A stretch of 64,000 nucleotides of DNA from Naegleria gruberi (GCA_000004985.1 GG738847.1); one strand, 5' to 3'; numbered from the stretch's first letter, positions 28,542 through 63,592 are shown. Notes: generated from the letters alone by a model not told the origin. Numbers and translations: made by a program.

Positions 28542-30359
28542 ATGAGTAACAATAATTCTGAAGATATTGCTGCTTCAAGTTTTGCCAATAGAAAGGCTCT
28601 ATTCCAAAACCTACAGAGCAATCCAAGTAATAGTAGCACAACTACCAAATCTACTACTACTCAATCTTCCACTTCCACTACTACCACTGGTAAATTACCT
28701 GCATTCAATCCGATCAATAAATCATCGACACCAAGCAACTCGTCATCTACTACCTCCAGCACAACTCCCGCCAATTCTAATACAGTAGTCACCAACAACA
28801 CAAGTGGCAGTGGAGGAGGTTCGAGCCAATTTAGGGAAGCTTTGAAAGGATTGAGTGGTGCAGCTGGAGGTAATCCACTGTTTGCTGGTGGTTTTGTGAA
28901 GAGTACAACAACAACTGCAACCACCAGTTTGCCAACTTATAAACCATCAACACCGAGAGGTAATAATAATAACAGTGGTGTTGTAAATTCGGTGAGTGAA
29001 AAGAAGGAACCACCTAAATTACCACCACGTAGAGGATCTGGTATTGGATCAAACAATACAAGCACTGCTACACTCACATCAGGTGGTAGTAATAATAATA
29101 ATAATAATTTGCAAACAGCAACAACAACAACAACTAGTCAACCTCCTCCTGCTTTGCCTCCTAGAAAACTTTCACAAAAGAAAGATGAACCACCACAAAT
29201 ACCAATTGTTACTAAGCAACAAGTTGTCGTAGAGGAAGAACCAATTGTTGAGGAGGAAATTCATCACGAAGAAGAAGAGGAAGACGAGGAAGAAGTTATT
29301 CAAGTACGTGATAGTATTCGACATGAAAGTGATGACGAGGATGAGTCAGACTCGGAGGAAAGTTCTACACCTTCTACACCAAGTGGAACATCATCTTCTA
29401 CTACATCAATTAACAATAACAATAATTCACTTCCACAAACATTGACCATTCAGAGTACTCCACCTCCTCTACCAAAGAAAACACCAAGTCAAGAAACACC
29501 AATTGTTGATAGTTATTCCATCACATTACATAATGCTACACAATCTTTGAACAACAACAAATCAAATCAGAATGATGACGAAGATCCAACAGCAAATCTA
29601 CCAAAGGGATGGACAGCCTACTTTGACCCTGGTCGTCAGGCCCACTATTACCACAATGAATTTACTGGAAAAACAACATGGAAGAAGCCTCCATCCGATG
29701 TTATTGTCTCCTCTTCATCATCTACTTCTGCAACAACAACAAAGGAAGAAGAACAATTAGAAGATGGATGGACAGCCTATTTCGACTCTGGTAGACAAGC
29801 CTACTACTATCATCACGAACAGACTGGTAAAACTACATGGAAGAAACCAATCAAGCAACAACAACAACCAAAGGTTTCTCCTCGCAAGCAAACTCCACCT
29901 CCAACTAGTACTACCACTTCTGCTGTACAACAACAACAAACTTCTCCACAGAAACAAACACCTCCAGTTGTCCCAACTAGAAAACTCTCACAAAAGAAGG
30001 ATGATGTTGCTCAGGAATCAACAACGCAACAACCTCCTTCTATTCCTCCTGTAAAACCAACTCGTCCTGCTACCAAGAGTATTATTGAGAATAATCCTCC
30101 TCCAGTTGTTGTTGTCGAGAGCAAACTTCCATCATTACCACCTGCAAAACCAATTAGAAAGGAAACAAATTCTCCAACAACAACTCAAGGAGATTCATCT
30201 GCTCCACCTCTTCCTCAGGAAAACCACTCAACAAGGCAACACCCCCACCACAAATTCCAACAGGAAAACCATCAAGAAATCCTTTGGAATCTTCTGCAAA
30301 GAATGATCATCGTCAATCGACAGTCATTAGGGAAGATGTCATGTTGCAACCACAATTAA
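28542..30359 (+). CDS. N-terminal segment (frame 0) of a probable single WW-domain-myosin gene: Ser/Thr/Asn-rich, two WW domains, and repeated Pro-rich motifs.
   Basis: ATG at 28542 (MSNNNSEDIAASSFANRKALF). WW domains are LPKGWTAYFDPGRQAHYYHNEFTGKTTWKKP and LEDGWTAYFDSGRQAYYYHHEQTGKTTWKKP. PPxxP motifs: PPPALPPRKLSQKK, TPPVVPTRKLSQKK, PPAKPIRKE. The ORF runs on in frame 0 to a TAA at 30359 and overlaps the downstream myosin ORF, which sits in the -1 frame. The frame switch is best explained by a 1-nt error at the C5 run at 30242-30246. Confidence 0.6.
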   Translation: MSNNNSEDIAASSFANRKALFQNLQSNPSNSSTTTKSTTTQSSTSTTTTGKLPAFNPINKSSTPSNSSSTTSSTTPANSNTVVTNNTSGSGGGSSQFREALKGLSGAAGGNPLFAGGFVKSTTTTATTSLPTYKPSTPRGNNNNSGVVNSVSEKKEPPKLPPRRGSGIGSNNTSTATLTSGGSNNNNNNLQTATTTTTSQPPPALPPRKLSQKKDEPPQIPIVTKQQVVVEEEPIVEEEIHHEEEEEDEEEVIQVRDSIRHESDDEDESDSEESSTPSTPSGTSSSTTSINNNNNSLPQTLTIQSTPPPLPKKTPSQETPIVDSYSITLHNATQSLNNNKSNQNDDEDPTANLPKGWTAYFDPGRQAHYYHNEFTGKTTWKKPPSDVIVSSSSSTSATTTKEEEQLEDGWTAYFDSGRQAYYYHHEQTGKTTWKKPIKQQQQPKVSPRKQTPPPTSTTTSAVQQQQTSPQKQTPPVVPTRKLSQKKDDVAQESTTQQPPSIPPVKPTRPATKSIIENNPPPVVVVESKLPSLPPAKPIRKETNSPTTTQGDSSAPPLPQENHSTRQHPHHKFQQENHQEILWNLLQRMIIVNRQSLGKMSCCNHN

Positions 30360-33300
30360 TGCCATCTCTTCCAGATGAAGTTGGATTTTCTAGAAAGTCC
30401 ATCTCACGTGATCGTTATCAACCAATCAACTCTGCATATCAACAAGATTTCCGTGTTCGTAGATTGGAAGATCGTGAAATGTGTGACGATTTAACATTGC
30501 TCCTTTCACAAAGTTCAATGAAATCAAAGAAATCCGAGCAAATGGTGGTTCCACAAAAGACTGAAATTACAGAAATTGATTTGACCAACATTTTGGCCAA
30601 TCGTTATTATCAAAATGAAATTTACACATGTGTTGGTCCTGCCATTCTCTCAATCAATCCATATAAGGCTGTAAAGGGTCTATACAGTAATGAAACAAAG
30701 GCTCTCTTCCACTCTCACATTCCATACGAGTTGGCTCCTCATATTTATTCACTTGCTGAGGATGCTTATCGTACATTGTTGGAACATGCCACTGCTAACA
30801 AGCCAACCTCCACTCATGTCACAAGAGCTAGACCTGCCATTACTGCTGTGTCATCTTCTTCTGCTCACTCTAAAAAGATGCCACCTCCTCCACCTCCTGG
30901 TAAACCAATCAATAAGGAAGCTGATTTGGATGATGATACATTCATTATTAATGATTTCAGTATTTCAGATGGTATTGGTGTTGGACAAGCAATTATTATT
31001 CAAGGTGAATCTGGTTCTGGTAAGACACTAGCCAGCAGAATTATCATGGAATACTTGGCTGCTGTTTCAATTTCTGGATTGGAAACTCAAAGAATCAAGG
31101 ATTCAATTCTTCAAAGTAATCCACTCTTGGAAAGTTTTGGTAATGCCAAGACTCTTCGTAACAACAACTCTTCTCGTTTCGGTAAATTTACCAACTTGTA
31201 TTTTAACTTTAAGGGCCAACTCATGGGAGGTGAGCTCACAACCATTCTCCTCGAAAAGGCCAGAGTTGTCAAGAGAAGACTTGGAGAACGTAATTTCCAT
31301 ATCTTTTACCAATTGTTATCTGATGATTATATTAGAAAACAACTCAATCTTGGTTTCCCAGAAGAGTACAATTACCTCAACAATAATGTTATCAATATTA
31401 ACGAAGTTGATGACAAGTCAGAATTTGAAACAACCAAACGTGCCATGGATTTATTGGACATGAGTGTTCCAGAACAAATGGCTGTTTTCAAGATTGTTGC
31501 TGCCATTTTGCAATTGGGTAATATTACCTTCACAGCCATTGAAGATCCTGAGGAGAGAAAGAGAAGAAACATCGCTCCTGGTGTTGAAGCTTGTGATGTT
31601 TCTAATGAAGCTTCATTGAAATTGGTTGCCAACACTCTCCAAATTGATGCTGAATTCTTGAGAAGATCAATGATTATCAGAGTTATCAAGACTGTTGGTT
31701 CTCCAATGCCAATTGAACAAACTCAATCAGTGGAACAAGCTGAATTCAACAGAGATACTCTCGCCAAGAATATCTATGAACGTTTGTTCTTGTGGTTGGT
31801 CAAGAGAGTCAACAGAGCATTGAGAGTTCCTGACTATGAAGATTTTGTTGCCAAGAAGAATTCTGAAACTTACTACAATATTGGTATCTTGGATATTTAT
31901 GGTTTTGAAATCTATGACAAGAATATTGGAACAGGAAAGATTGTTGATCAAGATGAAGCATCCAATCAAGGCAAACTCAAGAACGGCTTTGAACAATTGT
32001 GTATCAACTTTGTCAATGAAAAGATTCAAAGTGGTGTTCAAAGATCCATCAAGAAGGAACAAGAAGACATTCAAAAGGAAATTTATGGAGATGACTTTAA
32101 GCCAACTCTTGCCTCTACTCAAGAGAGAAACAAGAGATTCGACTCTGATGCTGCTATTCAAATGATTGCTGGCAAGCCAATCAGTGTCTTTTCATTGTTG
32201 GATGAAGAATCCATGTTCCCTAATGGTAATGATGTTAACTATGTTCAAAAGATGAAGACCAACATCAAACATCCATACTTTAAGATTCCAAGAATTGCAG
32301 AACCAACAGAATTTGAATTGGAACACTTTGCAGCTCTCGTCAAGTATAACACTGCAGATGGATGGGTTGACAAAAATCGTGACACTTTACTCGCTGAAAT
32401 GCTCTACACTATGCAAAATACAAAGGACCACTTGCTTATGGCTCTCTTCCCTAAGAATGAACAAGCTAATGATGTTCTCTCTAAAAAGCCAGCCAATGCA
32501 GGAACCAAACTTCAACAAACAACTGCTGAAAAGTTCTTGAGAGATGTCAGCAAGTTGATGAATCAATTGAGTTCATGCAGCTTGAAACATCACCACATTA
32601 GATGTATCATTCCAAACTATGAAGGAAGAGCTGATGATTTCCAAAAGGACGTTGTTAATCACCAAGTTAGATATTTGGGTATTTTAGACACTGTCCTCTC
32701 GAGAAAAGCCGATGATTTGGGATCCAATGTGACTGGTTACAGCATTAAGATTCCGTACGATACCTTCCTTGAAAGATACAAGCTTCTCTGTCCTGAAACA
32801 TTCCCATATTGGGAAACTTTCATTACCAACAAGTATGGTCCTGTTGAGGAATTCACTATTGAACACAAGAAGGAAGCAGTCCATCAAATTTTGAGCCAAG
32901 AACATATTGGTATGACCAATCCACAAGATTTCTTCTTGGGTAGAGGTAATGTCTTGTTGGCCTCTCCAGTTCAACTCTTCCAATTGGATGAAATGATCAG
33001 AGAACAAAAACATGAAATGGCTAGAAAGATTCAAAACTCCTTCAGAAGATACAGAAAGAAGAGAGCTGGAAAGATGGAAGAAATGATGAAGAAGGCTATC
33101 AAGACAACTGAACCAACCAAGCAAAAGGAAGCTCCTGAAGAAATCAGAATTAGACATGACGGTTTCAGAACATCCAACTTTGGTGAAACAAAGAAACGTG
33201 TCTTGATCACTGGTAGTGACAGAAGAAATATTTTCCTCTTGGATACTACAAGCTCATCTTCAGAGTTTGAACAATTGAGAAAGATTGCCATTAGAGATAT

Positions 33301-35959
33301 CAAGAAGATTTACATTTCACCATACTCTGATAATTACATGATTTTCAAGTTGGACATGGATGAAGGTGATGAATTGGTAGAACTAGATAACAAGTGGGAA
33401 TTTTTGGAAGAATTTAACAAGCTTATTGAATCAACTGCCTCTAACTTTAAGGGTGAACATGTTCCAAGAGTTGAAGTTACCAAGGACATTAGTATCCTCA
33501 ATCATCAAAAGGACAAGAACACTGGTACTCAAAATTTATTGGTCAGATTTATTCCATCTGCCTACAATACCAAGAAGACTGTTACCACTGAATGCTATGC
33601 TGATGAATTTGATAATAGACTCTTCATTGTCAACACCTTCACTCAAGCTGATATTTACAATCAAAGAAAGTTGAGAAGAAAGGCCTCACTCTATGCCAAG
33701 CAAGATCAAAACAGAGATTACTTGAGAATGCAAAACAGTGAATTGATGCAACTCTTAAAGAAGGATTATGATGACTCCAAAGTTCTATTCTCTGGTGTCG
33801 TTTCCAAGTATAACAAGAGATTCAAGAAGCAAGACAGAATTTTCATGGTCACCGATAAGGCCATTTATAATATTGATCCAAGTGGTGGTTACCTCATCAA
33901 TAGACGTGTTCCAATTGGCCAAGTAACCTCTGTCACTGTCTCACCTTACACTGATAACTTCTTTGTTGTTGATCATCCAGATCAAGATATTTTGAGTGAA
34001 AGTGCCAAGAAGACTGAAATTTTGGAATCCATTTTGGAAAGCTTCCAAAATGCTACCAATCAATTGTTACCGGTCAAGGTCACTACCAACTATTACATTA
34101 ACTTGGCCAAGAAGAATACCAAGCGTGTCGCTATTTCATGGATTATTGAACCAGAAAATCAAACACAATTCTCAGTTTCTACACTTGTTCCAAATACTGC
34201 TGGTGGAGCTGATGTTCATGTTGTTTCTGAAGTTGATAACGATAATGACAAGTCAATGAATGATTTGGCTGTTAGACAATCCTTCCAACGTAGATCAGTT
34301 CGTGGTAAGATGGTTAAGAATGGTGATATGGATGAGGTTGATTTGAATGACGTCTTTGGTGGTTTGAAGGTTCGTAGAAAGGACTCTCTCCTCGTCTGGT
34401 TCCAAGGTGATTATTTGAACTTTAAGGACAATCCAAAATTCATCGAAATGGTCAAGAAGCACGATCCAGAATGGAATGGACAAGTTCTCTTCTCTAACCT
34501 AATGACTAAAGTCAATAAGAGATTCAGAACTCAACCTAGAAAGGTTGTAGTTACACCAAATTACATTTACACTCTCGATGATGAAAAGTTACACTTTAAC
34601 AGAATTACTCCAATCAAGGATTTGAGTGGTATTTCTCTCAGTACTATGAGAGATGCCTTCTTTGTTGTCCACTGCCCAACTGATCACGATTTATTTGCAT
34701 CTTGTAAGAAGAAGACTGAATTAGTTTCTGTTATTTGTGATGCCTTCAAAGATAAGACTGGTATGGATCTCCCAGTTCACGTAGAAGATAAATTCGTCTA
34801 CAAACCAAGTACAGATGTTAAAGGTGTTAAAACAATTGAATTTAGACATGATCCAACCACCAAGGTTCCAATCCTTACTCCAACCAAGTTGGGTTGTCTC
34901 ATTCAAGTTAACAATTCTGATCCTGAAAAGGTTAAACAAAACTTACCAACTGCCAAACAACAAAAACCAGCTGCAACTCCACAACTCAAGTTATATGAAG
35001 GTTCTGATGAAAGAGGTATTCAAGATAAGATGGATTCCATCTATACAGGAAGAAAGGGACGTAATAGAAGATCTCTCCTTCGTGAATATCTTGGTGACTA
35101 TTTGAGATTGGAAGGTACACAAAGAATGAAGAAGGTTTTCGATAGAAATGGTGATACTGAATTAATCTTCTCTGGACAAGTTCTCAAATATAACAAGAAC
35201 TTTAAGAAGCAACATCGTTTATTGGTTGTAACAGACAAGAATGTTTACAATATTGATGAACAAGAATTCAAGATTAAGAGAAAGATTCCACTTGAAGAAA
35301 TTACAGGTGTCTCTGTTTCTCCATTCGACGACAATGTATTTGTTATGCACTGTCCAACTAGTGGTGACTATTTGTTGGAAGATGAAAAGAAGACTGAAAT
35401 TATTTCTGCTCTCCAAAATGCAAGACTCAGACACTTGAAACAACCATTGAAGATTAATGTTGATGACCAATTTAACTTTGCTCCAAACTCTTCATCTACC
35501 ATGCCAGTTACTTTCATTAGTGATGATCACTGCAAGGATACTTGGGCTGAGAATAGAGCTAATGCATTGGTTGTTCACGTAAAGAGACAAGAACCTGGTG
35601 TAGTATTGGAAGCTGCCTATCTCTATTTGAATGAAGAATCTAAACCAATTGAAGTTAAATCAACACCAATTCTTATCAAATTGAAGAAGAGATGGACCTA
35701 CAAGTTGCAAATTCGTTTCTATGTCAATGAATACTTGGCAGGATGTGAATTCCACGAAAAGATTGATACTGTGTCTTCGAGACTTGAATTTGTATCCAAA
35801 GTTGTTGAACTGGAACCAAAAGAAGAACGTTATGTTATTACCCTTCCTGAAAGAAAGGTAATTTATTCATTGCTTTCCAAAACCAGAGTCAAGTGCAAGC
35901 TAGTTGATCCAAGTGGTAAAGTTCTCATGGCTGTTCGTTTTGTTTATGATATTCAATAA
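30284..35959 (+). CDS. Unconventional myosin, class-I-like. The head has GESGSGKT P-loop, NNNSSRFGKF switch I and DIYGFE switch II. One IQ motif follows, then a tail of 3-4 tandem TH1-like (PH-like) modules. This is probably the C-terminal continuation of the upstream WW-domain ORF.
   Basis: Frame-2 ORF is open from about 30175 to the TAA at 35957-35959. The track start at 30284 is a TTG. The first in-frame ATG (30338) is still upstream of the earlier ORF's stop, so the two ORFs cannot be separate genes. The motor begins TEIDLTNILANRYYQNEIYTCVGPAILSINPYK. IQ motif: ARKIQNSFRRYRKKR. TH1-like repeats: VLFSGVVSKYNKRFKKQDRIFMVTDKAIYNID..VSPYTDNFFVV; VLFSNLMTKVNKRFRTQPRKVVVTPNYIYTLD..FFVVHCP; LIFSGQVLKYNKNFKKQHRLLVVTDKNVYNID..VSVSPFDDNVFVMHCP. 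Confidence 0.85.
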   Translation: MESSAKNDHRQSTVIREDVMLQPQLMPSLPDEVGFSRKSISRDRYQPINSAYQQDFRVRRLEDREMCDDLTLLLSQSSMKSKKSEQMVVPQKTEITEIDLTNILANRYYQNEIYTCVGPAILSINPYKAVKGLYSNETKALFHSHIPYELAPHIYSLAEDAYRTLLEHATANKPTSTHVTRARPAITAVSSSSAHSKKMPPPPPPGKPINKEADLDDDTFIINDFSISDGIGVGQAIIIQGESGSGKTLASRIIMEYLAAVSISGLETQRIKDSILQSNPLLESFGNAKTLRNNNSSRFGKFTNLYFNFKGQLMGGELTTILLEKARVVKRRLGERNFHIFYQLLSDDYIRKQLNLGFPEEYNYLNNNVININEVDDKSEFETTKRAMDLLDMSVPEQMAVFKIVAAILQLGNITFTAIEDPEERKRRNIAPGVEACDVSNEASLKLVANTLQIDAEFLRRSMIIRVIKTVGSPMPIEQTQSVEQAEFNRDTLAKNIYERLFLWLVKRVNRALRVPDYEDFVAKKNSETYYNIGILDIYGFEIYDKNIGTGKIVDQDEASNQGKLKNGFEQLCINFVNEKIQSGVQRSIKKEQEDIQKEIYGDDFKPTLASTQERNKRFDSDAAIQMIAGKPISVFSLLDEESMFPNGNDVNYVQKMKTNIKHPYFKIPRIAEPTEFELEHFAALVKYNTADGWVDKNRDTLLAEMLYTMQNTKDHLLMALFPKNEQANDVLSKKPANAGTKLQQTTAEKFLRDVSKLMNQLSSCSLKHHHIRCIIPNYEGRADDFQKDVVNHQVRYLGILDTVLSRKADDLGSNVTGYSIKIPYDTFLERYKLLCPETFPYWETFITNKYGPVEEFTIEHKKEAVHQILSQEHIGMTNPQDFFLGRGNVLLASPVQLFQLDEMIREQKHEMARKIQNSFRRYRKKRAGKMEEMMKKAIKTTEPTKQKEAPEEIRIRHDGFRTSNFGETKKRVLITGSDRRNIFLLDTTSSSSEFEQLRKIAIRDIKKIYISPYSDNYMIFKLDMDEGDELVELDNKWEFLEEFNKLIESTASNFKGEHVPRVEVTKDISILNHQKDKNTGTQNLLVRFIPSAYNTKKTVTTECYADEFDNRLFIVNTFTQADIYNQRKLRRKASLYAKQDQNRDYLRMQNSELMQLLKKDYDDSKVLFSGVVSKYNKRFKKQDRIFMVTDKAIYNIDPSGGYLINRRVPIGQVTSVTVSPYTDNFFVVDHPDQDILSESAKKTEILESILESFQNATNQLLPVKVTTNYYINLAKKNTKRVAISWIIEPENQTQFSVSTLVPNTAGGADVHVVSEVDNDNDKSMNDLAVRQSFQRRSVRGKMVKNGDMDEVDLNDVFGGLKVRRKDSLLVWFQGDYLNFKDNPKFIEMVKKHDPEWNGQVLFSNLMTKVNKRFRTQPRKVVVTPNYIYTLDDEKLHFNRITPIKDLSGISLSTMRDAFFVVHCPTDHDLFASCKKKTELVSVICDAFKDKTGMDLPVHVEDKFVYKPSTDVKGVKTIEFRHDPTTKVPILTPTKLGCLIQVNNSDPEKVKQNLPTAKQQKPAATPQLKLYEGSDERGIQDKMDSIYTGRKGRNRRSLLREYLGDYLRLEGTQRMKKVFDRNGDTELIFSGQVLKYNKNFKKQHRLLVVTDKNVYNIDEQEFKIKRKIPLEEITGVSVSPFDDNVFVMHCPTSGDYLLEDEKKTEIISALQNARLRHLKQPLKINVDDQFNFAPNSSSTMPVTFISDDHCKDTWAENRANALVVHVKRQEPGVVLEAAYLYLNEESKPIEVKSTPILIKLKKRWTYKLQIRFYVNEYLAGCEFHEKIDTVSSRLEFVSKVVELEPKEERYVITLPERKVIYSLLSKTRVKCKLVDPSGKVLMAVRFVYDIQ

Positions 35960-38227: not shown

Positions 38228-39154
38228 TTGTTCTGTGTGTGTGAATCTCTTTTCTCAAAACCTCTATTCTCTGTTTTTTATACAAGAACAAGAATAAATA
38301 CTCTTTATCAAATGCTTAATGATACTGTAAGAATGGAAAATCAAGATTGTGATGTGAGTGGTGCTGCTTGTACTGTTGATTGTCCTGCTAACAACTCTAC
38401 TTCAGCTCGATCTAGAATTCGTGCCACCTCTCTTCCCCTTATTTCCTCTGTTAATTCCTTAGATGTGTCCATGACGTCTCCTCTCCTTCATGATGAAGAG
38501 TCCGAGAGTGTGATATCATCAATTCCCTCCCCAAAGTCATCATCATCATCATCATCATCTCCCTCCAACTTTATTATAGCCGAGAATCCATCCCAATCAC
38601 CATTCAATTCAACAACTCATGCAATTCCGCCATCATCCCCTAATCAAAGATTGAGACTTTTATGTGAAAAGTATAATTCCTCTGCCCATCAAAACAATAG
38701 ATCCAATTCTTGTATACCCAACCAACCATGCTCTCTGAAAACCTTACTAATGGATGACTTGCAATCTAGTCGATCCAATAGCTCTATTTCAGGAAACACT
38801 TTCCATGCAAAACATTGTCCATTTCACAGACATTCAACCAGTGACTTGTTTTGTGTTTCTAGAACTAAGATGAGCGATGCATATTTCCACTCTAACATTG
38901 GAAAGCCCTCTTCCTCATCCTCTCCAATGGATGACATGGAAAATAGTGGTGGATGCACTGAAAGTGAAATGGCACACATGTTCTTTTACTTTGTCTTGGG
39001 AATTGTCATGGTTATTGTACAATTCGCCAAAAAGTGTTTCAAAGATGATGTCAGGTCTCAAACAATTTCACAAACCTCTTCCTCCTCCTATAAAACTCCA
39101 ATCATTGTTGGTGAGCCATCCTCAGCAACAACAACCTCATCATCAATACGATGA
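38228..39154 (+). CDS. Ser-rich protein with a C-terminal hydrophobic segment (FFYFVLGIVMVIVQFAKKCF). Function unknown.
   Basis: ORF of 308 codons. The likely ATG is at 38312 (MLNDTVRMENQDCD). Runs of poly-Ser (SSSSSSSSPS). No recognisable domain. Expression and start are uncertain. Confidence 0.45.
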   Translation: MFCVCESLFSKPLFSVFYTRTRINTLYQMLNDTVRMENQDCDVSGAACTVDCPANNSTSARSRIRATSLPLISSVNSLDVSMTSPLLHDEESESVISSIPSPKSSSSSSSSPSNFIIAENPSQSPFNSTTHAIPPSSPNQRLRLLCEKYNSSAHQNNRSNSCIPNQPCSLKTLLMDDLQSSRSNSSISGNTFHAKHCPFHRHSTSDLFCVSRTKMSDAYFHSNIGKPSSSSSPMDDMENSGGCTESEMAHMFFYFVLGIVMVIVQFAKKCFKDDVRSQTISQTSSSSYKTPIIVGEPSSATTTSSSIR

Positions 39155-39612
39155 TAAATCAAAATCCAAAAACAACAAATAAATTATTTTTCTCCGTAAG
39201 ATATAATTAAGGTGTTTGGTTAGTTCGTTCCATAATAATTCGATAGTCGCAGGAGATAATAAATAAGGTACCTTGGTGAATTATCTCTTCTCAACAATGA
39301 ATAAGAAGTGAAAAGTGTTAAATATATTGATTCTTGGTTCCTTAAATCCAAACTTGGTATTGTAAATTTACAAAATACGATACGAATAAACGTGGCAGGT
39401 AGAGTGGAATATTTATTTCAGGAAAAGGCAACCAATCACAATCCTCCAACCTTTTTTAGTTCGAGAAAAATCCTTTTTGCAGCCAACTAAAAAAATTCTG
39501 TTGGCGAGAATTGCAATTAACAGAAACAACAAAAAAAACTTGTTCACAAGGTGCTCGGCTACACTTCAACAATTTTCATCATCTTTTGAAGTGGATACCT
39601 AAAATACAATAC

Positions 39613-42600
39613 ATGACAGCAGCTGTCAATAATCGAAAGAAAATGAAGTGTTCAAATAAGAGACGACAACAGTTGACCACCACCATCATGATGTTCATGG
39701 TGATGGTGATTGGAATTATTTTACTCACCAAAAATGTTCAAAGTTTATTACCACGATATAAAATTGAAGTGCTATCCGGAAATCCATACATGTCCACAGC
39801 ACTCTATGATGGAATTATGGCCACAGATGCAATTCTCAACCTTCCAAGAAACGTACTCCTCTACAATGATGAATTGTACATATCCGATACCTTTAATCAC
39901 ATGATTAGAAAGGTTTCGAAAAATGGAACACTCACCACATTGGTAGGAGTTGGTGCTGCTGGTTCAAATGATGATGATGGTTTGCTTGGAATTGATACTC
40001 AACTAAACAATCCGAATGGTTTATCCATTTCTCCAAATGGTGAATTATTGTTTATTGCTGATACTGATAACAAATTGATTCGAGTTTTGAATATGAAAAC
40101 AATGATTTGTAATGTATTTAAAATGTTTACATCGAGTGGGGTGTTAGATACCTTGACGAAACCAGTTGGTGTTTCCATTACAAGTAATTGGAATATTTAC
40201 ATAACCGATGACAAGTATGTGAAAAAGGTTAATTATTATACAAGAGTAGTTACAATTATTGCAGGAGGTATGTTATATTGTTATTGTTTTTAATACGAAA
40301 CTATTGAAATTTGTTTTTTTTTGTTCTGATTGACTAAAAAGGTGGAAGTGGTAGTTATAAAGATAATGTCGTTCCAACAACCATTTCAATCACAAGTCCT
40401 AAACTCATTCATACCATTCCTTACACTCCTGATTCTACTCTTGTAGTTTTTACTGATGCCACAACTGCTAAATTTATTATAGATACAGAAAGTTTACAAT
40501 CAACCACAAAAACAGGACTTGTAGGAGGGTAAGTTTTAATCATCAATTTATTGAGTACTAGAGTAATATATTTTGAAAAATAGTTCAAATATTCCAGCAA
40601 TTTTTCCATTTTCCACCACAACATTTTACTATTCTTTGGGAAATGGGATTTTTAACTTGGAAAGTGGAATTAATACTCCTAAATCTGCAACTACTGGTGG
40701 TGATGCTGGAAAGTATAGTGTAACTAATATGGCGTATTCTTATTTTAACACTTCTTATGGATTACATGGAAATAGTTCAGTGATTTATATTGCAGATTCG
40801 GCTAATTATTGTATTAGAAAGTATGATATTGCGAATAATTCTGTATCAACTGTTGCAGGTTTCAAATATCAACCTTCTTTTGAAGGAGTTTATGCTTTAT
40901 CTGTTTATGCAGATTTGAAAATTCAAAAGTTAACCGTGACCTACAAGGATGAAATTATTTATCTTGACACTAACAACAGAGTTAGAATGATTACAGCCAA
41001 TGGAAGAATCAAAACACTCATTGGATCTGAGTATACATCCAAATATCCAGTTTGTGTTTCAACATCTATTGCTTTGGAATGTAGGGCAACTAACGCGATT
41101 GATATTATGAGCGTTGGAGATTCTCTAATTCTCTCAACTTTAAAATTATTCAGTTATGATTTGGCAAGCATTTCAGGAACATCTACCATTACCCAACAAG
41201 GTACTGAACTAGTAGGTACTTTCTCTCTAAGAGCAATGAATGGCTCATCAGGTGCTGTCGTATATTTCCTAAATAATGCCAATCAATTGTTAAAAAAATC
41301 TTTAACTGGTTTGGAAACAGTTGTGAAAGGATCATTATCTGCATCAGATTTCAATATTGTAAATATTGATACTGATTTCGCTAGAATTTGCTATATTGAG
41401 AGTGGAATTATCACTTGCTTTAATGAGACTGATTTAAGTTCAATTGTTCTCCCAATGCCATCTGGAGAAACCAAGTTCACAAGCGTTGCACTCACTAGTA
41501 CTACTGTCTATGCATCAACAAGTAATAGAATCTATGCCTATTCAGTTTCTGATTATTCAACTGCTTACCTAATTGCAGGTTCAAAGCCAGTTAATGTGAA
41601 TGGACAAACTTTTGATTATAGTGGGTACAACAGTGATTACATTTTGGCAACTAGTGCTATTTTGAGTGATATCAGTAATTTGCAAGTCTCTTCTTCTAAT
41701 GGAAATATCTATTTTGTGAGTGGTGGTACTTTGATTAGAAGAATTGCCAATGGATTTGTTTCTACAGTTGCTGGTATTTCACCTCTCCATACAGAAGGTA
41801 TAACACCAATGGCAATTGCAAGAGATTCAGCTAAAAAGATCACCTATTTCATTGACAGTAATACACATGTTAAAATGATGGATGAAGCCAGTGGAATTAT
41901 TAGTCCACTTACTTTACCAATTAAACCAAGTCCTGATCCACAAAATATTACATTACCATTAACATTTTTAAGAGCTCCACCAAAGAATGCAGGTCAATTA
42001 TTGACTTATTCCTCCTATGATGGTTTATTATATCTTGCAGATTATTGCAGAATTATTTCCATCAATGTTACATCTGCTTCATACAAGCTTGTAACTGGTA
42101 CTGTGTGTGGAGATAGTGCTGACAATATTTTAGCAATCAATTCATTCATTCAAACACCAAGTTCCATGACAGTCGACTCTAAAACTGGAGATTTATACTT
42201 TACGTTTGGAACAAAGATTTTGAAAATTGAAAAGAAAACTGGTTTATTAACGACATTATATGGCAGTACTGGTAAAATTGGAACTGTTGTGAATGGAATA
42301 ATTTCCAAAACTTCTCTCCTCACCAACATTACAAGTTTGGTCGTGTCTGATGATATTATTTACTTTGCAGATATTACTCGTAGCGTTAGACAAATAGCTC
42401 TATCAAACAGTAATTTGACAACTTTGGTTACCATGGCTGCGGTCACTGAAAAGATGCTTTCAATTTCACTCGATAAGAATGGTGACATTTTCATTCTCGA
42501 TACCTATACTTACTTAATTAGCAAGTACATTAAAAGTTCAGGTGGGGTCCCCAAAGAGGTAGCAGGAAAACAATTTGGTAAAGGATTCAATGGAAGATAC

Positions 42601-44089
42601 AATGCTCAGGCAACGAATTCCAATTTGAGAAATTTTATTTCCTCTGTCAACATTGACAATGGAATAATGTTTACTGAAATTGCAGATAAGACTGGTGGTC
42701 TCATTAGAAAAATAACAGCTCAATGTGATGGAAATTCAACCCTGGACTCTAGTGGAGGTAGTTGTGTCTGTAATGATGGATACACTGGAGATTCTTGCAA
42801 TGTATTCGTTTGTTATGGTTTAACTGCAACTAGTTCAGAAGTATGCTCAGGAAATGGATCGTGTATTGATGTGAATGTGTGTAAATGTAGGGATGGATTC
42901 GAAGGTTCCTCATGTAATATTGTTAAGGCTGCAAATGTCACAACAGGAGATTCATTGGGTGTGATTTTACCTGCTGTTCTCGTTCCAATATTGGTTATTT
43001 TGATTATTATTGTAATTATAATTGTAGTGGTAATCATTGTGTTTGCCACAAAAAAGAAGAAGAAGAAGGATAAGGGATTGGAAGAAACCACAGATTTTGA
43101 TGAAGTTCCAATGAGTGATTTGCCATCTGACATGTCTGTCATTTTGAGTAGCAGTTTGACAAGAAGTGTTTCATCATCAACCAATGAAGAAGAAAATCTC
43201 TTTACAAGATATCAAGATATTGTCAAGATTGGACAGGGAGCATTCGGTAGTGTTTTTAAAGTTAGAGATACCAAAGACGGAGACAAGATCAAAGCTGTTA
43301 AAGTTTTGAAATTTAATTCTGTCAGTGATTTGAATATGATTATGAAAGAAGGTGCTCAATTAACAAACGCCAAACACAACCACATTCTCAAAGTCAATGA
43401 TTATTTCATTACTAACGACAATTTACTTTGTATTGATATGGACTATTATGAAAAGGGAGATTTGTCTCAATTTACCAAAACTGATTGTCCAGAACATATT
43501 GTAAAACAAATTCTCTATCAATTATGTGATGCTTTGAGTTATGTTCATGGAACTCTTTCCATGATTCACAGAGATATCAAGCCAACTAACATTTTTGTAA
43601 AGGAATATGATGGAACAAATGTCAGTGTCATTCTTGCTGATTTTGGTTTAGCCAAACAAGCTCAAGAATCAGCTGCAAATTCATATGCTGGTACTCCACT
43701 TTGTAAGTTTTTAATTTTCCTTTTTATTTACAAATATTTCAATTAATTTTACAATTTTAATTTTTTTAATATTTCAATTGTTAATTAATAATATTTCAGA
43801 TATGAGTCCTGAACTTGGATTAGGAGGAAAATATTATCCAAACTCTGATACTTATTCACTAGGTGTTACAATTTATCAAATAATGACAAAGGACCTTACC
43901 ACATCAATCAGTCACTTGTTGTTGAATGATCCACAAAATGCTCAATCGAAATTGAGAGACAAGATGAAACAATCTAAACTGGGTTACTCAGATCAGCTTA
44001 TTGACTTGATTATTAGAATGTTGGACAAGGACAGTTTAACTAGACCTAATGCTGCAGACATTCTTTCAGATTCGTATTTCAGAAGATAA
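39613..44089 (+). CDS. Four-exon gene for a ~1400-aa receptor-like protein kinase. It has a signal anchor, NHL-repeat beta-propeller region(s), EGF-like modules, a single TM, and a cytoplasmic Ser/Thr-type kinase domain.
   Basis: Exon 1 is 39613 (ATG, MTAAVNNRKK; the ORF is open from 39511) to 40267, with donor g|GTATGT. Exon 2 is 40342-40528 (GGSGSYKDNVVPTT...TGLVGG-), with donor gg|GTAAGT. Exon 3 is 40584-43702, ending ..SYAGTPL-, with donor t|GTAAGT. Exon 4 is 43800-44089, giving the junction GTPL-Y-MSPELGLGGKYY. Phases are consistent, and intron 2 (55 nt) is anchored to the ORF track. NHL-like repeats: LYISDTFNHMIRKV...LLFIADTDNKLIRVLN. EGF: CVCNDGYTGDSCN...CKCRDGFEGSSCN. TM: ILPAVLVPILVILIIIVIIIVVVIIVF followed by KKKKKK. 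Kinase motifs: IGQGAFGSVFKV, AVKVL, HRDIKPTNIFV, DFGLAK, GTPLYMSPE. Confidence 0.8.
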
Positions 44090-44377
44090 TTAAACCGCAA
44101 TCATTTGATTACTTTCTGCACATTATTTTATTATCATTCGAATGAGTTGGTTTATTATTGGTGCTCAAATGGTTTCTTTGGAACTTCAAATATGGAAATC
44201 AATTTTTATCTCAAACAAATTGGAGAAAAATTGGTTCAATTTGGTGCATAAAGAAGAAACAATTGGATAAAAACCATTAATCACCCAATTTGAGACAATG
44301 ATGACAATGCTATTTTAAAACTTTCAATCTACAATATTGAAATATCCAACTTTAAAAAAAACAAGCAAGTTACTTCA

Positions 44378-45757
44378 ATGACTTCTATCGATTTGGAAAT
44401 AATTGATGACCCAAAGTTGGTCAATTCATATCATTCACATAAGAAACATAATCATAATGATCACCATCATTTGAATCACCATCACAAACACTCATGTCAA
44501 GAGGAGGAAGAAGAATTGCAACCTGTTGAATTGACAACTACTCGTGTTAGATTGGACAATTCAACCTTGAGGAAGATCTATCTCTCAAAGAACAAACCAT
44601 TATGGAAGGAAGCTGATTTTATCAAGATGATCATAATGATTGCCATGATTTTTGTCATGTTTGGTGCTGAACTTTCTGTTGGTATCTTGGCTGCATCTTT
44701 AACACTTCTGGCCGATTCGTTCCATATGCTTTCAGATGGAATTTCTCTAATTGTTGGTGCAGCATGCATTTGGTTGGCTAAGAAGGGACCTACTGCAAAT
44801 ATGACCTTCGGTTTTGGAAGAGCTGAAACATTGGGTGGTTTAATTAATGCTGTGTTTTTGGTGAGTGTTGTGCTGTATGTGATAATGGAATCTATTCAGA
44901 GATTTTTCATGCCAGAGAGAATTGAGGATCCAATACTTGTGTTGTGTGTTGGAGGTGCTGGTTTGTTGATTAACTTGATTGGTCTTTTTATGTTTTGTGG
45001 CCACCATCCTGGACATGACCATGATCATGGACACGAACATGACCACAAACACTCAAAGGAAGAAGACCACCAACATGAATCTCATGAACACGATCATGAA
45101 CATACTGACCCACAATCCAACAATTCTCAAAAGAAAGAACACAAAGAACACAAGCACAGATCTGAAAATATTTTTGGTGTTTTTTTACACATTTTGGGTG
45201 ATTTTCTTGGCTCAGTTGCTGTCATGATTTCCTCTGGTCTCATTCTCATATTTGACCAAAAGGATGAGCAAGGCAATTATCCAAATACATGGGTTCTCTA
45301 TGTTGACCCAGTTCTCAGTTTAGTAATGAGTGGAATCATCTTATTCACAGCTGTTCCACTATTGAAATCAACATGTAGAACCTTGTTGCAATCAGTTCCT
45401 ACAGCAGTTGACATTCCTCAATTGAAAGCAAATATATTGGAAGTGGAGGGTGTAATTTCGTGTCATGAATTGCATGTTTGGCAACTTGCTGGAAAAACTA
45501 GCGTTGCAAGTGTTCACATTCTAACATCTGAAAGCAATGAAGAGTTTATGAGAATTGTTAAACGAGTACAACAGATATTCCACAAATTCAATGTTCATGC
45601 AACAACGATTCAACCAGAGTTTATTTCACTAAATTCCATGCAAGGAAATGAATCTCAACCTTGTCATTTAATTTGCTCTCCGTCATGCTATGAACAATTT
45701 TGTTGTGCACCAAATCCAGTGGAAATGGATATTGTAGATCCATCCAATAAAGTTTAA
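44378..45757 (+). CDS. Cation diffusion facilitator (CDF / ZnT / SLC30-like) zinc transporter with a His-rich cytoplasmic loop, 459 aa.
   Basis: Six TM helices with the CDF signature (ILAASLTLLADSFHMLSDGISLIVG; HILGDFLGSVAVMIS). A His/Asp-rich loop (HHPGHDHDHGHEHDHKHSKEEDHQHESHEHDHEH). A C-terminal cytoplasmic domain with HELHVWQL. Confidence 0.85.
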   Translation: MTSIDLEIIDDPKLVNSYHSHKKHNHNDHHHLNHHHKHSCQEEEEELQPVELTTTRVRLDNSTLRKIYLSKNKPLWKEADFIKMIIMIAMIFVMFGAELSVGILAASLTLLADSFHMLSDGISLIVGAACIWLAKKGPTANMTFGFGRAETLGGLINAVFLVSVVLYVIMESIQRFFMPERIEDPILVLCVGGAGLLINLIGLFMFCGHHPGHDHDHGHEHDHKHSKEEDHQHESHEHDHEHTDPQSNNSQKKEHKEHKHRSENIFGVFLHILGDFLGSVAVMISSGLILIFDQKDEQGNYPNTWVLYVDPVLSLVMSGIILFTAVPLLKSTCRTLLQSVPTAVDIPQLKANILEVEGVISCHELHVWQLAGKTSVASVHILTSESNEEFMRIVKRVQQIFHKFNVHATTIQPEFISLNSMQGNESQPCHLICSPSCYEQFCCAPNPVEMDIVDPSNKV

Positions 45758-54541: not shown

Positions 54542-55675
54542 ATGTCCTTCTGTGAAGACGTTCAAGCCCTCGTTGTCGATAACGGTTCTGGTATGTGTAA
54601 AGCTGGTTTTGCTGGTGATGATGCTCCAAGAGCTGTCTTCCCTTCAATTATTGGTAGACCAAAGCAAAAATCAATCATGGTTGGTATGGGTAACAAGGAT
54701 GCCTATGTTGGTGATGAAGCTCAATCAAAGAGAGGTATCTTAACTTTGAAGTATCCAATTGAACATGGTATTGTTACCAATTGGGATGATATGGAAAAGA
54801 TTTGGCATCACACTTTCTACAATGAATTGAGAGTTGCTCCAGAAGAACACCCAGTCTTGTTGACTGAAGCTCCTTTGAATCCAAAGGCCAACAGAGAAAA
54901 GATGACTCAAATCATGTTTGAAACCTTCTCAGTTCCAGCAATGTATGTTGCTATTCAAGCTGTCTTGTCCTTGTATGCTTCTGGTAGAACTACTGGTATT
55001 GTTTTGGACTCTGGTGATGGTGTCTCTCACACTGTTCCAATTTATGAAGGTTATGCTTTGCCACACGCCATTTTGAGATTGGATTTGGCTGGTCGTGACT
55101 TGACTGATTATTTGATGAAGATTTTGATGGAAAGAGGTTACTCATTCAATACTACTGCTGAAAGAGAAATTGTCAGAGATATTAAGGAAAAGCTCTGTTA
55201 TATTGCTTTGGACTTTGAAGCTGAAATGAAGGTTGCTGCTGAATCATCCTCTGTTGAAAAGTCATACGAATTGCCAGATGGTAATGTCATTACTGTTGGT
55301 AATGAAAGATTCAGATGTCCAGAAGTCTTGTTCCAACCTAATTTCATTGGTATGGAAGCTGCTGGTGTTCATGAAACTACTTTCAACTCCATTGGTAAAT
55401 GTGATATTGATATCAGAAAGGACTTGTATGGTAACGTTGTCTTGTCTGGTGGTACTACTATGTTCGAAGGTATTGCTGAAAGAATGACCAAGGAATTGAC
55501 TGCTATGGCTCCTGCCTCAATGAAGATTAAGGTTGTTGCTCCACCAGAAAGAAAGTACTCTGTCTGGATTGGTGGTTCCATCTTAGCGAGCCTTTCGACC
55601 TTTCAGCAGATGTGGATCACAAAGGAAGAATATGAGGATGCCGGTCCAGGTATCGTTCACAGAAAGTGTTTCTAA
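54542..55675 (+). CDS. Conventional actin, 377 aa, single exon.
   Basis: [41 protein letters not shown]...[17 protein letters not shown]. Near-complete identity to canonical actins over its whole length. The ATG is preceded by an A-run. The N-terminus MSFCED and K41-Q42-K43 are mildly unusual. Confidence 0.95.
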
Positions 55676-63071: not shown

Positions 63072-63592
63072 GGTACTGTATCAATTTCATAATGATCTGT
63101 ATAGTAGATGTCATTGTCTCATCCCTGTATGTATCAAGTGGATCAGCCATGTACCATGAATGATATGGATGATCTTCAAAATCATATAGATATATTTAAT
63201 TATCATGTATAGATGTATTGGAAGTGAATTGAAGTGGTATAGATTTCTATCTTCAATGTTAGTATAGGTCAGTTGACAAGTTGAATAGTAAATATCCTGA
63301 AATGATACCAAAGTATTTGAAATTGATATATATCGTTATAAACATGATTTATAAGATGATATATTGATTTGAAATGATTTTGAAATGTTTTCATTGATAT
63401 TCTAATTGTCTAATCTATTATATGAAATTAACTTATATAAGTCATTATAATGATGTAATATTATGTTATTATATGATTATATATTCAATTTGGAGTATAT
63501 TGATATATAATATATTGATTTATAATGAGTATTTATTGAGATAATTAATTAAGATGAATAAAAGTCAAAATGTTGGGTCTGACCTTAGTCGT
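63072..63592. repeat. Subtelomeric AT-rich sequence with degenerate short repeats (tgatatat / atgattt / tatatga variants); telomere-associated sequence.
   Basis: ~85% AT with no ORFs. It is rich in imperfect tandem/interspersed motifs and sits immediately internal to the telomeric tract. Confidence 0.5.

What the first reader, a model, noticed from the sequence alone, without database searches (positions are those of the whole stretch)
39613..44089. Receptor-like Ser/Thr kinase with NHL-repeat/EGF ectodomain, four exons, kinase domain split by an intron
Signal anchor, then NHL-type beta-propeller repeats (...LYISDTFNHMIRKV.., LLFIADTDNKLIRVLN), then EGF modules, then one TM followed by a poly-Lys stop-transfer, then a complete cytoplasmic protein kinase. 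The kinase has HRDIKPTN, so it is Ser/Thr-type rather than Tyr. The intron 43703-43799 splits the activation-segment motif GTPL|YMSPE precisely. Single-pass receptor kinases with this ectodomain combination are rare outside plants and animals, and rare in the amoebozoan kinomes I know. It is a candidate environmental or cell-contact sensor.
Basis: partly seen in the sequence, partly recalled or inferred. Interest (0 to 1): 0.6.

Follow-up and report, generated by a model that had tools for sequence, protein, structure and literature searches.

The report
Naegleria NHL-propeller receptor Ser/Thr kinase gene
This is a real, intact gene of the amoeboflagellate Naegleria gruberi for a single-pass membrane receptor with a large beta-propeller/EGF exterior and an active-looking Ser/Thr kinase interior; it belongs to a Naegleria-specific family already in the databases but never studied.

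Summary
Window 39613-44089 (+) carries a four-exon, three-intron gene (4251-nt CDS, 1416 aa). Its parts in order are: signal peptide, about 18 degenerate NHL blades, two teneurin-type EGF modules, one TM helix, a KKKKKK stop-transfer, a conserved juxtamembrane motif, and a complete Ser/Thr kinase with all catalytic motifs. Intron 43703-43799 splits GTPL|YMSPE as described.

The taxon is wrong. Two window ORFs, including the one immediately downstream, exactly match Naegleria gruberi NEG-M proteins, so this is Heterolobosea, not Amoebozoa.

The architecture is not unique. At least five full-length N. gruberi paralogues, four N. lovaniensis proteins and one N. fowleri protein share NHL(-EGF)-TM-kinase. 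Sister receptors carry RCC1-like propellers or giant EGF arrays on the same kinase. In three homologues one exon encodes the distal ectodomain, TM and whole kinase, so a two-gene reading is very unlikely.

The kinase cannot be assigned to a named family (MST3, NEK1/2 and ULK1 score alike). The membrane-proximal propeller models as a six-bladed NHL fold resembling the mycobacterial PknD sensor.

This particular gene gave no self-hit in any protein search, so it seems unannotated. I found no paper on the family. Verdict: a new member of an uncharacterised, lineage-specific receptor-kinase family, of moderate interest.

The parts
39613..40267 (+). Exon 1 (aa 1-218 plus 1 nt): start codon, signal peptide, first NHL blades
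   Evidence: First in-frame ATG after an upstream stop. Pfam NHL at aa 131-158 and TEN_NHL at aa 58-113.
39613..39744 (+). Signal peptide / N-terminal hydrophobic segment (aa 1-44; basic n-region, h-region aa 24-40, VQS|LL)
   Evidence: Hydropathy scan. Cleavage is inferred from the -3/-1 rule.
40268..40341 (+). Intron 1 (74 nt, GTATGT..AAG, phase 1)
   Evidence: The junction restores the family-conserved AGGGS.
40342..40528 (+). Exon 2 (aa 219-280 plus 2 nt of the Gly281 codon): one NHL-like blade
40529..40583 (+). Intron 2 (55 nt, GTAAGT..TAG, phase 2)
   Evidence: Read directly from the sequence: the next AG downstream gives a frame that stops almost at once, so this acceptor is the one that keeps the frame open.
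40584..43702 (+). Exon 3 (aa 281-1320 plus 1 nt): remaining NHL blades, EGF modules, TM, juxtamembrane region, kinase up to GTPL
   Evidence: Continuous 1039-codon frame
39745..42711 (+). Extracellular NHL-type beta-propeller region (aa 45-990, spans introns 1-2). About 18 blades, probably three six-bladed propellers.
   Evidence: Custom blade HMM finds 11-12 blades. Closest PDB sequences are teneurin-like protein, SOQ1 and NHLRC2. An AF2 model of aa 620-1066 (pLDDT 69.6) matches six-bladed NHL propellers including PknD 1rwi.
42724..42915 (+). Two teneurin-type EGF modules (aa 995-1058; 4 + 6 Cys)
   Evidence: Pfam EGF_Teneurin, EGF_TEN, EGF_2. Six of the ten Cys (C995, C1008, C1024, C1035, C1041, C1047, C1049, C1058 less the two that vary) are invariant in the family alignment; the full invariant list is.
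42955..43047 (+). Transmembrane helix (aa 1072-1102)
   Evidence: Maximum Kyte-Doolittle 4.24
43051..43068 (+). KKKKKK stop-transfer / positive-inside signal (aa 1104-1109)
43114..43140 (+). Conserved juxtamembrane motif SDLPSDMSV (family consensus SDFPSDASV)
   Evidence: Family alignment; D1126, P1128 and S1132 are invariant
43210..44080 (+). Protein kinase domain (aa 1157-1414, spans intron 3). GQGAFGSV, K1187, E1203, HRDIKPTN, DFG, GTPLYMSPE and RPN are intact.
   Evidence: Pfam Pkinase E 3e-47; motifs; PDB comparisons
43703..43799 (+). Intron 3 (97 nt, GTAAGT..CAG, GC 0.11, phase 1 in the Tyr1321 codon), inside the activation segment / P+1 loop
   Evidence: Absent from the N. lovaniensis and N. 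fowleri homologues and from metagenome contig L002.
43800..44089 (+). Exon 4 (aa 1321-1416 and TAA stop): C-lobe of the kinase

Best explanation
The locus is one intact protein-coding gene of Naegleria gruberi NEG-M. It encodes a type I single-pass receptor Ser/Thr kinase. After a signal peptide, about 945 extracellular residues form roughly 18 degenerate NHL blades, probably three six-bladed beta-propellers. Two teneurin-type EGF modules follow next to the membrane, then one TM helix with a poly-Lys stop-transfer. Inside the cell lie a conserved acidic/Ser-rich juxtamembrane motif and a catalytically complete RD-type kinase that ends at the C-terminus. It is one member of a Naegleria-specific family in which a conserved EGF-TM-juxtamembrane-kinase unit carries fast-evolving or exchanged sensor ectodomains (NHL propellers, RCC1-like propellers, giant EGF arrays). 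Shown here: gene structure, domain content, intact catalytic motifs, family membership, and ectodomain divergence (about 25% identity) against kinase conservation (59-64%). Inferred: the propellers bind an extracellular, probably macromolecular or surface-bound ligand (prey bacteria, substrate or other cells); binding clusters the receptor; the kinase trans-phosphorylates conserved activation-loop residues (S1314/Y1315/T1318) and the juxtamembrane serines; this starts cytoplasmic signalling.
For: Gene model and ORF statistics. Domains. Topology and catalytic motifs. Organism: (the adjacent ORF equals XP_002682376.1; the actin ORF equals D2V154). Collinear full-length homologues: N. lovaniensis XP_044550582 aligns to aa 87-1415 and XP_044542747 to aa 44-1416. 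Annotated members with the same Pfam architecture in N. gruberi (D2VCE7, D2VNU7, D2VUG2, D2VK55), N. lovaniensis and N. fowleri; N. gruberi D2VSK9 is counted as a member from its length and its position in the kinase tree. Distal ectodomain, TM and kinase on a single exon in three homologues. An independent metagenome contig with signal peptide, six NHL blades, TM and a kinase of this family on one strand. Six-bladed NHL fold of the membrane-proximal propeller. Domain-wise identity. Kinase tree placing the window gene with N. lovaniensis and N. fowleri NHL receptors.
Against: No transcript or protein evidence was available. The gene gave no self-hit in any of three word-indexed protein searches or in the exhaustive search of cluster representatives, so public annotation does not back the model. 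Several N. gruberi relatives are annotated as kinase-only proteins of 189-290 aa, which on its face allows cytosolic versions. The AF2 model of the larger ectodomain piece was poor (pLDDT 46.8), so 'three propellers' rests on blade counting. Ligand, localisation and activity are untested.
Confidence: 0.8

Rival explanations
1. There are two products rather than one receptor. An internal promoter or start, for example at Met1130 just before SVILSSS, would give a cytosolic kinase, and the upstream part would be a separate secreted or membrane NHL protein.
For: N. gruberi models P0121 and P0122 (283 and 281 aa) start exactly at the equivalent position, MIISSS.
Against: Distal ectodomain, EGF, TM, juxtamembrane region and kinase up to GTPL form one uninterrupted exon. 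The same holds in N. lovaniensis and N. fowleri homologues annotated as single genes of 1405-1584 aa. The short models nest inside the receptor clade next to full-length D2VSK9, which suggests truncated gene models. The juxtamembrane motif upstream of that Met is conserved.
Confidence: 0.05
2. It is a silent or decaying paralogue (pseudogene in the making), which would explain why it is missing from the protein catalogue.
For: No self-hit. The ectodomain blades are very degenerate; only one passes Pfam NHL on its own.
Against: The 4251-nt ORF is intact with three canonical introns. The chance of the exon-3 frame is about 1e-34. Every catalytic motif and eight of the ten EGF cysteines, invariant across the family, are kept. 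Codon usage correlates with neighbouring annotated genes at 0.65-0.72, against 0.50 for a shifted frame.
Confidence: 0.07
3. It is a membrane-anchored NEK-family kinase acting in cell-cycle, basal-body or flagellar biology, not an environmental receptor.
For: The single-sequence PDB search ranks NEK2 (94 bits) and NEK1 (91.5) first. The HRDIKPxNIF and GTPxYMSPE motifs resemble NEK (motif comparison from my own knowledge).
Against: With the family profile, MST3 (128), NEK1 (126.6), NEK2 (125.6) and ULK1 (122.5) are indistinguishable. The kinase is C-terminal, behind a signal peptide, a 1000-aa ectodomain and a TM helix. There is no NEK-type C-terminal tail.
Confidence: 0.1
4. It is mainly an adhesion molecule (teneurin-like cell-cell or cell-substrate contact), with the kinase providing outside-in signalling, rather than a receptor for a diffusible ligand.
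For: The ectodomain matches teneurin Pfam families (TEN_NHL, EGF_Teneurin) and the teneurin-like protein 9ifo. The same NHL+EGF ectodomain occurs on adhesion-GPCR-like GAIN/7TM-RGS proteins in Naegleria.
Against: Nothing here separates adhesion from ligand sensing. There is no YD shell and no type II topology as in teneurins.
Confidence: 0.3

Closest known systems
Naegleria NHL-EGF-TM-kinase proteins (N. gruberi XP_002678153.1/D2VCE7, D2VNU7, D2VUG2, D2VK55, D2VSK9; N. lovaniensis XP_044550582.1, XP_044542747.1, XP_044543675.1; N. fowleri XP_044563041.1)
   Same: They share the domain order and a similar length. Alignment is collinear end to end. The kinase is 49-64% identical, and the EGF cysteine pattern and SDFPSDxSV juxtamembrane motif are conserved.
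   Different: The ectodomain is only 17-26% identical. There is no synteny with the N. lovaniensis or N. fowleri loci. The intron positions differ, and the intron in GTPL|YMSPE was seen only in this gene among those examined. All of these proteins are uncharacterised 'predicted proteins'.
Mycobacterium tuberculosis PknD (Mbk): Hanks-type Ser/Thr kinase with an extracellular six-bladed NHL beta-propeller sensor
   Same: A single-pass membrane Ser/Thr kinase whose sensor is an NHL propeller. The model of aa 620-1066 superposes on PknD sensor 1rwi (Foldseek E 1.8e-11, target TM 0.73). The architecture is described in PMC1262709.
   Different: The order is reversed (kinase-TM-NHL in PknD, NHL-EGF-TM-kinase here). 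PknD has one propeller against about three here, and no EGF. No PknD sensor chain was listed at E <= 0.01 in the ectodomain sequence search, and no PknB/PknD kinase was among the 60 best kinase matches. The resemblance is most simply convergent domain shuffling.
Teneurins / teneurin-like proteins
   Same: The EGF_Teneurin and TEN_NHL Pfam families match. The best PDB sequence match of the ectodomain is teneurin-like protein 9ifo (83 bits).
   Different: Teneurins are type II proteins with EGF before NHL, a YD shell and a toxin-like C-terminus, and they have no kinase. Here the protein is type I, NHL comes before EGF, no YD/RHS match was found, and the C-terminus is a kinase.
Plant RLK/Pelle receptor kinases (for example the EGF-containing WAKs) and animal receptor Ser/Thr or Tyr kinases
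   Same: Type I single-pass design: ectodomain, TM, juxtamembrane region and RD kinase, with fast-evolving ectodomains on a conserved kinase.
   Different: The kinase is not of the IRAK/Pelle/TKL or TK type. The best PDB relatives are MST3, NEK and ULK. HRDIKPTN is not the Tyr-kinase HRDLAARN. No plant or animal receptor kinase known to me has NHL propellers outside (own knowledge).
NEK kinases (NEK1/NEK2)
   Same: They are the best single-sequence PDB hits. The catalytic-loop and P+1 motifs are similar.
   Different: The family profile does not prefer NEK over MST3 or ULK1. The architecture is unrelated.
Naegleria NHL-EGF-GAIN/GPS proteins (N. gruberi XP protein P0015 with 7TM+RGS; N. lovaniensis P0002, P0018)
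   Same: They have the same kind of long NHL array followed by teneurin-type EGF modules, with collinear 23-25% identity over about 1000 aa.
   Different: The membrane and effector part is GAIN/GPS plus 7TM-RGS, or a single TM with a short tail, instead of a kinase.

Membership tests
Naegleria NHL-EGF-TM-Ser/Thr kinase family (uncharacterised) | Full-length collinear homology to annotated members | tested here: met
   BLASTP aa 87-1415 against XP_044550582 (31% identity, 509 bits) and aa 44-1416 against XP_044542747; MAFFT alignment.
Naegleria NHL-EGF-TM-Ser/Thr kinase family (uncharacterised) | Kinase domain clusters within the family, well separated from other kinases | tested here: met
   Identity is 49-64% within the family against 35% or less for the next hits. 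The NJ tree places it with N. lovaniensis and N. fowleri NHL receptors (no bootstrap).
Naegleria NHL-EGF-TM-Ser/Thr kinase family (uncharacterised) | Conserved EGF cysteine pattern, TM, basic stop-transfer and SD[FL]PSDxSV juxtamembrane motif | tested here: met
   Invariant columns C995, C1008, C1024, C1035, C1041, C1047, C1049, C1058, D1126, P1128, S1132.
NHL-repeat six-bladed beta-propeller | Sequence match to NHL / TEN_NHL profiles | tested here: met
   PF01436 E 8e-11 and PF25021 E 5e-15. PDB sequence hits to teneurin-like protein, SOQ1, NHLRC2 and TRIM2/3 NHL.
NHL-repeat six-bladed beta-propeller | Six-bladed propeller fold | tested here: met
   The AF2 model of aa 620-1066 (pLDDT 69.6, pTM 0.65) matches SOQ1 NHL, the six-bladed designer protein Pizza6, NHLRC2 and PknD 1rwi, with target TM 0.73-0.79. 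Only the membrane-proximal propeller was modelled usably; the larger model failed.
Eukaryotic protein kinase, active Ser/Thr type | G-loop, VAIK Lys, alphaC Glu, HRDxKxxN, DFG, [AS]PE, subdomain XI Arg | tested here: met
   GQGAFGSV 1164, K1187, E1203, HRDIKPTN 1276, DFG 1300, SPE 1323, RPN 1402. Catalytic activity itself was not tested.
NEK family | Kinase domain closer to NEKs than to any other kinase family | tested here: inconclusive
   Single sequence: NEK2 94 bits against ULK3 83. Family profile: MST3 128, NEK1 126.6, NEK2 125.6, ULK1 122.5.
NEK family | N-terminal kinase domain with a C-terminal regulatory tail, cytosolic | tested here: not met
   The kinase is the C-terminal 260 aa, behind a signal peptide, ectodomain and TM.
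Plant RLK/Pelle (IRAK) or animal TGF-beta-type receptor kinases (TKL group) | Kinase domain of the IRAK/Pelle or TKL type | tested here: not met
   No IRAK, BRI1, BAK1 or TGFBR chains among the 60 best PDB matches with either the sequence or the family profile.
Receptor tyrosine kinases | HRDLAARN/HRDLRAAN catalytic loop and PxxWxAPE P+1 loop | tested here: not met
   HRDIKPTN and GTPLYMSPE. The rule itself is established knowledge of kinase subdomains VIb and VIII.
PknD-type bacterial sensor kinases | N-terminal Hanks kinase, TM, C-terminal NHL propeller | tested here: not met
   The order is the reverse here. The propeller fold is shared. The PknD architecture is taken from PMC1262709.
Teneurins | Type II topology, EGF array, NHL, YD shell, C-terminal toxin-like domain | tested here: not met
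   Only the EGF and NHL modules match. There is no YD/RHS Pfam hit, the topology is type I, and the C-terminus is a kinase.

The most novel reading that the evidence does not exclude
Naegleria (Discoba) has independently built a modular receptor-kinase system. One conserved EGF-TM-juxtamembrane-Ser/Thr-kinase unit is combined with interchangeable extracellular sensors: triple NHL propellers, extracellular RCC1-like propellers, or giant EGF/GPS arrays. The same NHL-EGF ectodomain is also wired to GAIN/7TM-RGS proteins. On this reading the window gene is an unannotated member of the system. It would be a separate origin of receptor-kinase signalling outside animals and plants. It would also be convergent with bacterial PknD in pairing an NHL propeller with a Ser/Thr kinase, and it may be used to recognise prey bacteria, surfaces or other cells.
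Probability: 0.55. Interest if true: 0.55.

Novelty: new member of a known kind. Interest (0 to 1): 0.4.

Why it matters
Single-pass receptor kinases are usually discussed for animals and plants. A diversified family in a heterolobosean would show that free-living protists far from both lineages assembled the same signalling logic from other parts. The family has exchangeable propeller or EGF ectodomains and a kinase belonging to no named group. It also offers candidate surface sensors for prey, substrate or cell contact in Naegleria, including the pathogen N. fowleri, which has members of the family. In practical terms, the result flags a 4.5-kb gene that seems absent from the public N. gruberi protein set. 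It also flags several kinase-only models that are probably truncated receptors.

Tried and rejected
1. Amoebozoan origin: rejected by exact matches to N. gruberi proteins.

2. NEK assignment: the single-sequence lead did not survive the family-profile search.

3. Fetching N. gruberi paralogue loci to test whether the short kinase models are truncated: no N. gruberi DNA is on record.

4. N. fowleri P0128 locus: the gene is cut by the contig end.

5. Orthology by synteny with N. lovaniensis and N. fowleri loci: no shared neighbours.

6. AF2 model of the exon-3 ectodomain (794 aa): pLDDT 46.8, not used for fold search.

I used the exon-3 piece instead.

8. Looking for the gene's own protein in public sets: no 100% hit. 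The word-indexed search also missed the real full-length paralogues, so its negatives are weak. One search, run with a unique ectodomain segment, is the cleanest negative.

9. Literature: no paper combined Naegleria with NHL repeats, receptor kinases or teneurin in a relevant way. The Acrasis genome paper does not mention such receptors. The N. gruberi genome paper is not held.

10. Paralogues inside the window: none. Only EGF-module similarity to the REJ-domain gene at about 60000-60600.
Full report
**Observation.** Reading window 39000-44800 and translating it in three frames shows four coding segments on the + strand: 39613-40267, 40342-40528, 40584-43702 and 43800-44089.
- They join through three GT..AG introns of 74, 55 and 97 nt (GC 0.11-0.20) into a 4251-nt ORF of 1416 codons ending in TAA.
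- The start is the first in-frame ATG after an upstream stop.
- Exon 3 alone is a 1039-codon open frame. At the window's base composition the chance of that is about 1e-34. Codon usage correlates with the neighbouring annotated genes (r 0.65-0.72) better than a shifted frame does (0.50).
- The third intron sits in the Tyr codon of GTPL|YMSPE. Unspliced, the frame stops after 18 codons. Spliced, it restores a motif conserved in all relatives.
- Intron 1 is supported by the conserved AGGGS across its junction.
- No ORF of 150 aa or more lies on the opposite strand of the locus.

**Anatomy.**
- Pfam gives Pkinase at aa 1157-1414 (E 3e-47), TEN_NHL (three stretches), NHL (aa 131-158), EGF_Teneurin, EGF_TEN and EGF_2.
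- Hydropathy shows only two hydrophobic segments. One is aa 24-40, preceded by a basic n-region and followed by VQS|LL, so a likely cleavable signal peptide. The other is aa 1072-1102, followed by KKKKKK. The predicted topology is type I.
- The ectodomain has 13 N-glycosylation sequons and 18 Cys, ten of them in the EGF region (4-Cys and 6-Cys modules, aa 995-1058).
- A blade HMM built from canonical Naegleria NHL repeats finds 11-12 blades. Their spacing, and reading the gaps by eye, suggest about 18, that is three six-bladed propellers.
- An AF2 model of the 794-aa exon-3 ectodomain was poor (pLDDT 46.8).
- A model of aa 620-1066 with a family alignment reached pLDDT 69.6 and pTM 0.65. By Foldseek it matches six-bladed NHL propellers: SOQ1, the designer protein Pizza6, NHLRC2, the M. 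tuberculosis PknD sensor 1rwi (E 1.8e-11, target TM 0.73) and teneurins.
- By sequence, the nearest solved ectodomain relatives are a teneurin-like protein (83 bits), SOQ1 and NHLRC2.
- The kinase keeps GQGAFGSV, K1187, E1203, HRDIKPTN, DFG, SPE and RPN. It is an RD kinase of the Ser/Thr type and not a pseudokinase by sequence.

**Organism.** The ORF immediately downstream (44378-45754) is identical to N. gruberi NEG-M XP_002682376.1 (SLC30 transporter, D2V151). The ORF at 54542-55672 is identical to N. gruberi actin D2V154. Both lie on a 941,567-nt scaffold. The window is therefore Naegleria gruberi (Heterolobosea), not an amoebozoan.

**Relatives.**
- The first full-length search returned mostly bacterial NHL proteins, plus Naegleria NHL-EGF proteins with GAIN/GPS and 7TM-RGS or single-TM ends.
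- The kinase-only search found N. gruberi and N. fowleri kinases at 54-59% identity, then a steep drop to 35% or less. Those Naegleria models are only 189-290 aa.
- An exhaustive HMMER search with the exon-3 piece EGF-TM-juxtamembrane-kinase then found long proteins matching the whole query in one stretch.
- Pfam and exact look-ups identified these. From N. gruberi: D2VCE7 (1397 aa), D2VNU7 (1435), D2VUG2 (1239), D2VK55 (1037) and D2VSK9 (1380). From N. lovaniensis: XP_044550582 (1405), XP_044542747 (1584), XP_044543675 (1426) and XP_044543693 (848). From N. fowleri: XP_044563041 (1507). Those scanned with Pfam are NHL/TEN_NHL (mostly with EGF) plus Pkinase; D2VSK9 and the N. fowleri protein were placed by length, cluster and kinase tree.
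- Sister architectures use the same kinase. One type has RCC1-like propeller, EGF and TM (N. gruberi D2V8B1, N. lovaniensis XP_044552277). Another has giant EGF arrays (D2VPM5, D2VMZ5, D2VGC0; N. fowleri XP_044565022 and XP_044566999, the last with GPS).
- The window protein aligns collinearly with XP_044550582 (aa 87-1415) and XP_044542747 (aa 44-1416).
- Against the N. lovaniensis members, the kinase is 59-64% identical, the EGF region 44-51% and the NHL region about 25%. So the ectodomain diverges fast on a conserved kinase.
- A rough NJ tree groups the window kinase with the N. lovaniensis and N. fowleri NHL receptors. It nests the short N. gruberi models beside full-length D2VSK9, so the short models are probably truncated.
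- All named sources are Naegleria. Unnamed metagenome contigs also occur. One is L002, where a signal peptide, six canonical NHL blades, a TM and a kinase of this family lie on one strand within 3.4 kb.

**One gene or two?** Exon 3 runs without a stop from the fifth blade through EGF, TM and juxtamembrane region to GTPL.
- In N. lovaniensis XP_044550582 a single exon covers aa 617-1405.
- In XP_044542747 one unbroken tblastn match (95% identical) covers aa 599-1584.
- In N. fowleri XP_044563041 a single exon covers aa 876-1507.

Each of these includes the distal ectodomain, TM and the entire kinase. The two-gene reading would need an internal start site, and I rate it at about 5%. Intron positions are not shared between these paralogues. 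The intron in the activation segment was seen only in the window gene among the loci examined.

**Kinase class.** With the single sequence, NEK2 and NEK1 lead the PDB hits (94 and 91.5 bits, against ULK3 at 83 and MST3 at 80). With the nine-member family profile, MST3 (128), NEK1 (126.6), NEK2 (125.6) and ULK1 (122.5) are equivalent. No TKL, IRAK or Tyr-kinase chains are near the top. I therefore treat the kinase as a lineage-specific Ser/Thr kinase family with some NEK-like motifs, not as a NEK.

**Annotation status.** No search returned a 100% match to this gene. That covers the full length, the kinase, the exhaustive search of 50% cluster representatives and a unique 479-aa ectodomain segment. 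The neighbouring genes are present. The gene therefore seems absent from the public N. gruberi protein set, although I cannot exclude that it was withheld from the collection.

**Literature.** Searches combining Naegleria with NHL repeat, receptor(-like) kinase, kinome or teneurin found nothing relevant. The Acrasis kona genome paper (PMC11589745) does not mention such receptors. The N. gruberi genome paper could not be read. Bacterial kinase-TM-NHL proteins (M. tuberculosis Mbk/PknD) are described in PMC1262709.

**Mechanism.** Shown: a type I membrane protein by sequence features, with an NHL-propeller/EGF exterior and an intact RD Ser/Thr kinase interior, belonging to a family whose exterior evolves quickly or is swapped. 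Inferred: the propellers bind an extracellular, probably macromolecular or surface-bound ligand. Clustering then triggers trans-phosphorylation of the conserved activation-loop S1314/Y1315/T1318 and of the Ser-rich juxtamembrane segment around the conserved SDxPSDxSV motif. Whether the role is prey or environment sensing or cell/substrate adhesion cannot be decided here.

**Comparison and verdict.** It works like a receptor Ser/Thr kinase and resembles PknD in pairing an NHL propeller with a Ser/Thr kinase, but with reversed order and a eukaryotic type I layout. It borrows teneurin-type modules without being a teneurin. It fails the kinase-class test for plant RLKs, TGF-beta receptors and RTKs. 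It is a clear member of the uncharacterised Naegleria family. Novelty: a new, apparently unannotated member of a kind already present in the databases. The family as a whole is an undescribed variant of receptor kinases. Interest 0.4.

Noticed in passing
window 56732-60493 (-) and 60496-63150 (-): A large ORF with REJ domain, PKD-like domain and a teneurin-type EGF module, so a polycystin-1-like surface protein. It continues upstream into an ORF that runs into an assembly gap. Its EGF modules are 35-43% identical to those of the receptor kinase.
   Followed up: partly
window 60601-63071 and 56346-56395: Runs of N (2471 and 50 bases), which are scaffold gaps. Any gene model across them is incomplete.
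   Followed up: yes
window 30284-35959 (+): A myosin head followed by four stretches matching the Myosin_TH1 tail domain. This is an unusual multi-TH1 class I-like myosin.
   Followed up: no
window 7372-11826 (-): A 1484-aa ATG-started ORF with no Pfam match at E <= 1e-4. Its exact sequence is not in the protein collection.
   Followed up: no
window 54542-55672 (+): An actin gene whose protein is identical to copies encoded at several other N. gruberi loci (four or more GenBank accessions).
   Followed up: partly
N. gruberi proteins P0121, P0122, P0123, P0126, P0127 (not in window): Kinase-only models of 189-290 aa that begin just after the conserved juxtamembrane motif. P0121 and P0122 cluster with full-length receptor D2VSK9. 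They are probably truncated gene models of receptor kinases.
   Followed up: partly
N. gruberi D2V8B1 (P0332), N. lovaniensis XP_044552277 (P0308), metagenome P0301: Receptor kinases of the same kinase family whose predicted ectodomain is an RCC1-like propeller. Extracellular RCC1 repeats are unusual.
   Followed up: no
N. gruberi P0015; N. lovaniensis P0002, P0018: The same long NHL array plus teneurin-type EGF ectodomain is fused to GAIN/GPS and 7TM-RGS (adhesion-GPCR-like) or to GAIN plus a single TM. This suggests ectodomain shuffling between receptor classes in Naegleria.
   Followed up: partly
L002 (JGI metagenome 3300002220, contig of 3378 nt): A compact relative from an unidentified organism: signal peptide, six near-identical canonical NHL blades, TM and a kinase of this family, without EGF. 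The gene caller split it into three genes.
   Followed up: partly
tool behaviour, vs 44: The word-indexed homologue search with the kinase domain missed the full-length Naegleria paralogues at about 50-64% kinase identity. The exhaustive HMMER search found them. Negatives from the indexed search should be read with care.
   Followed up: yes
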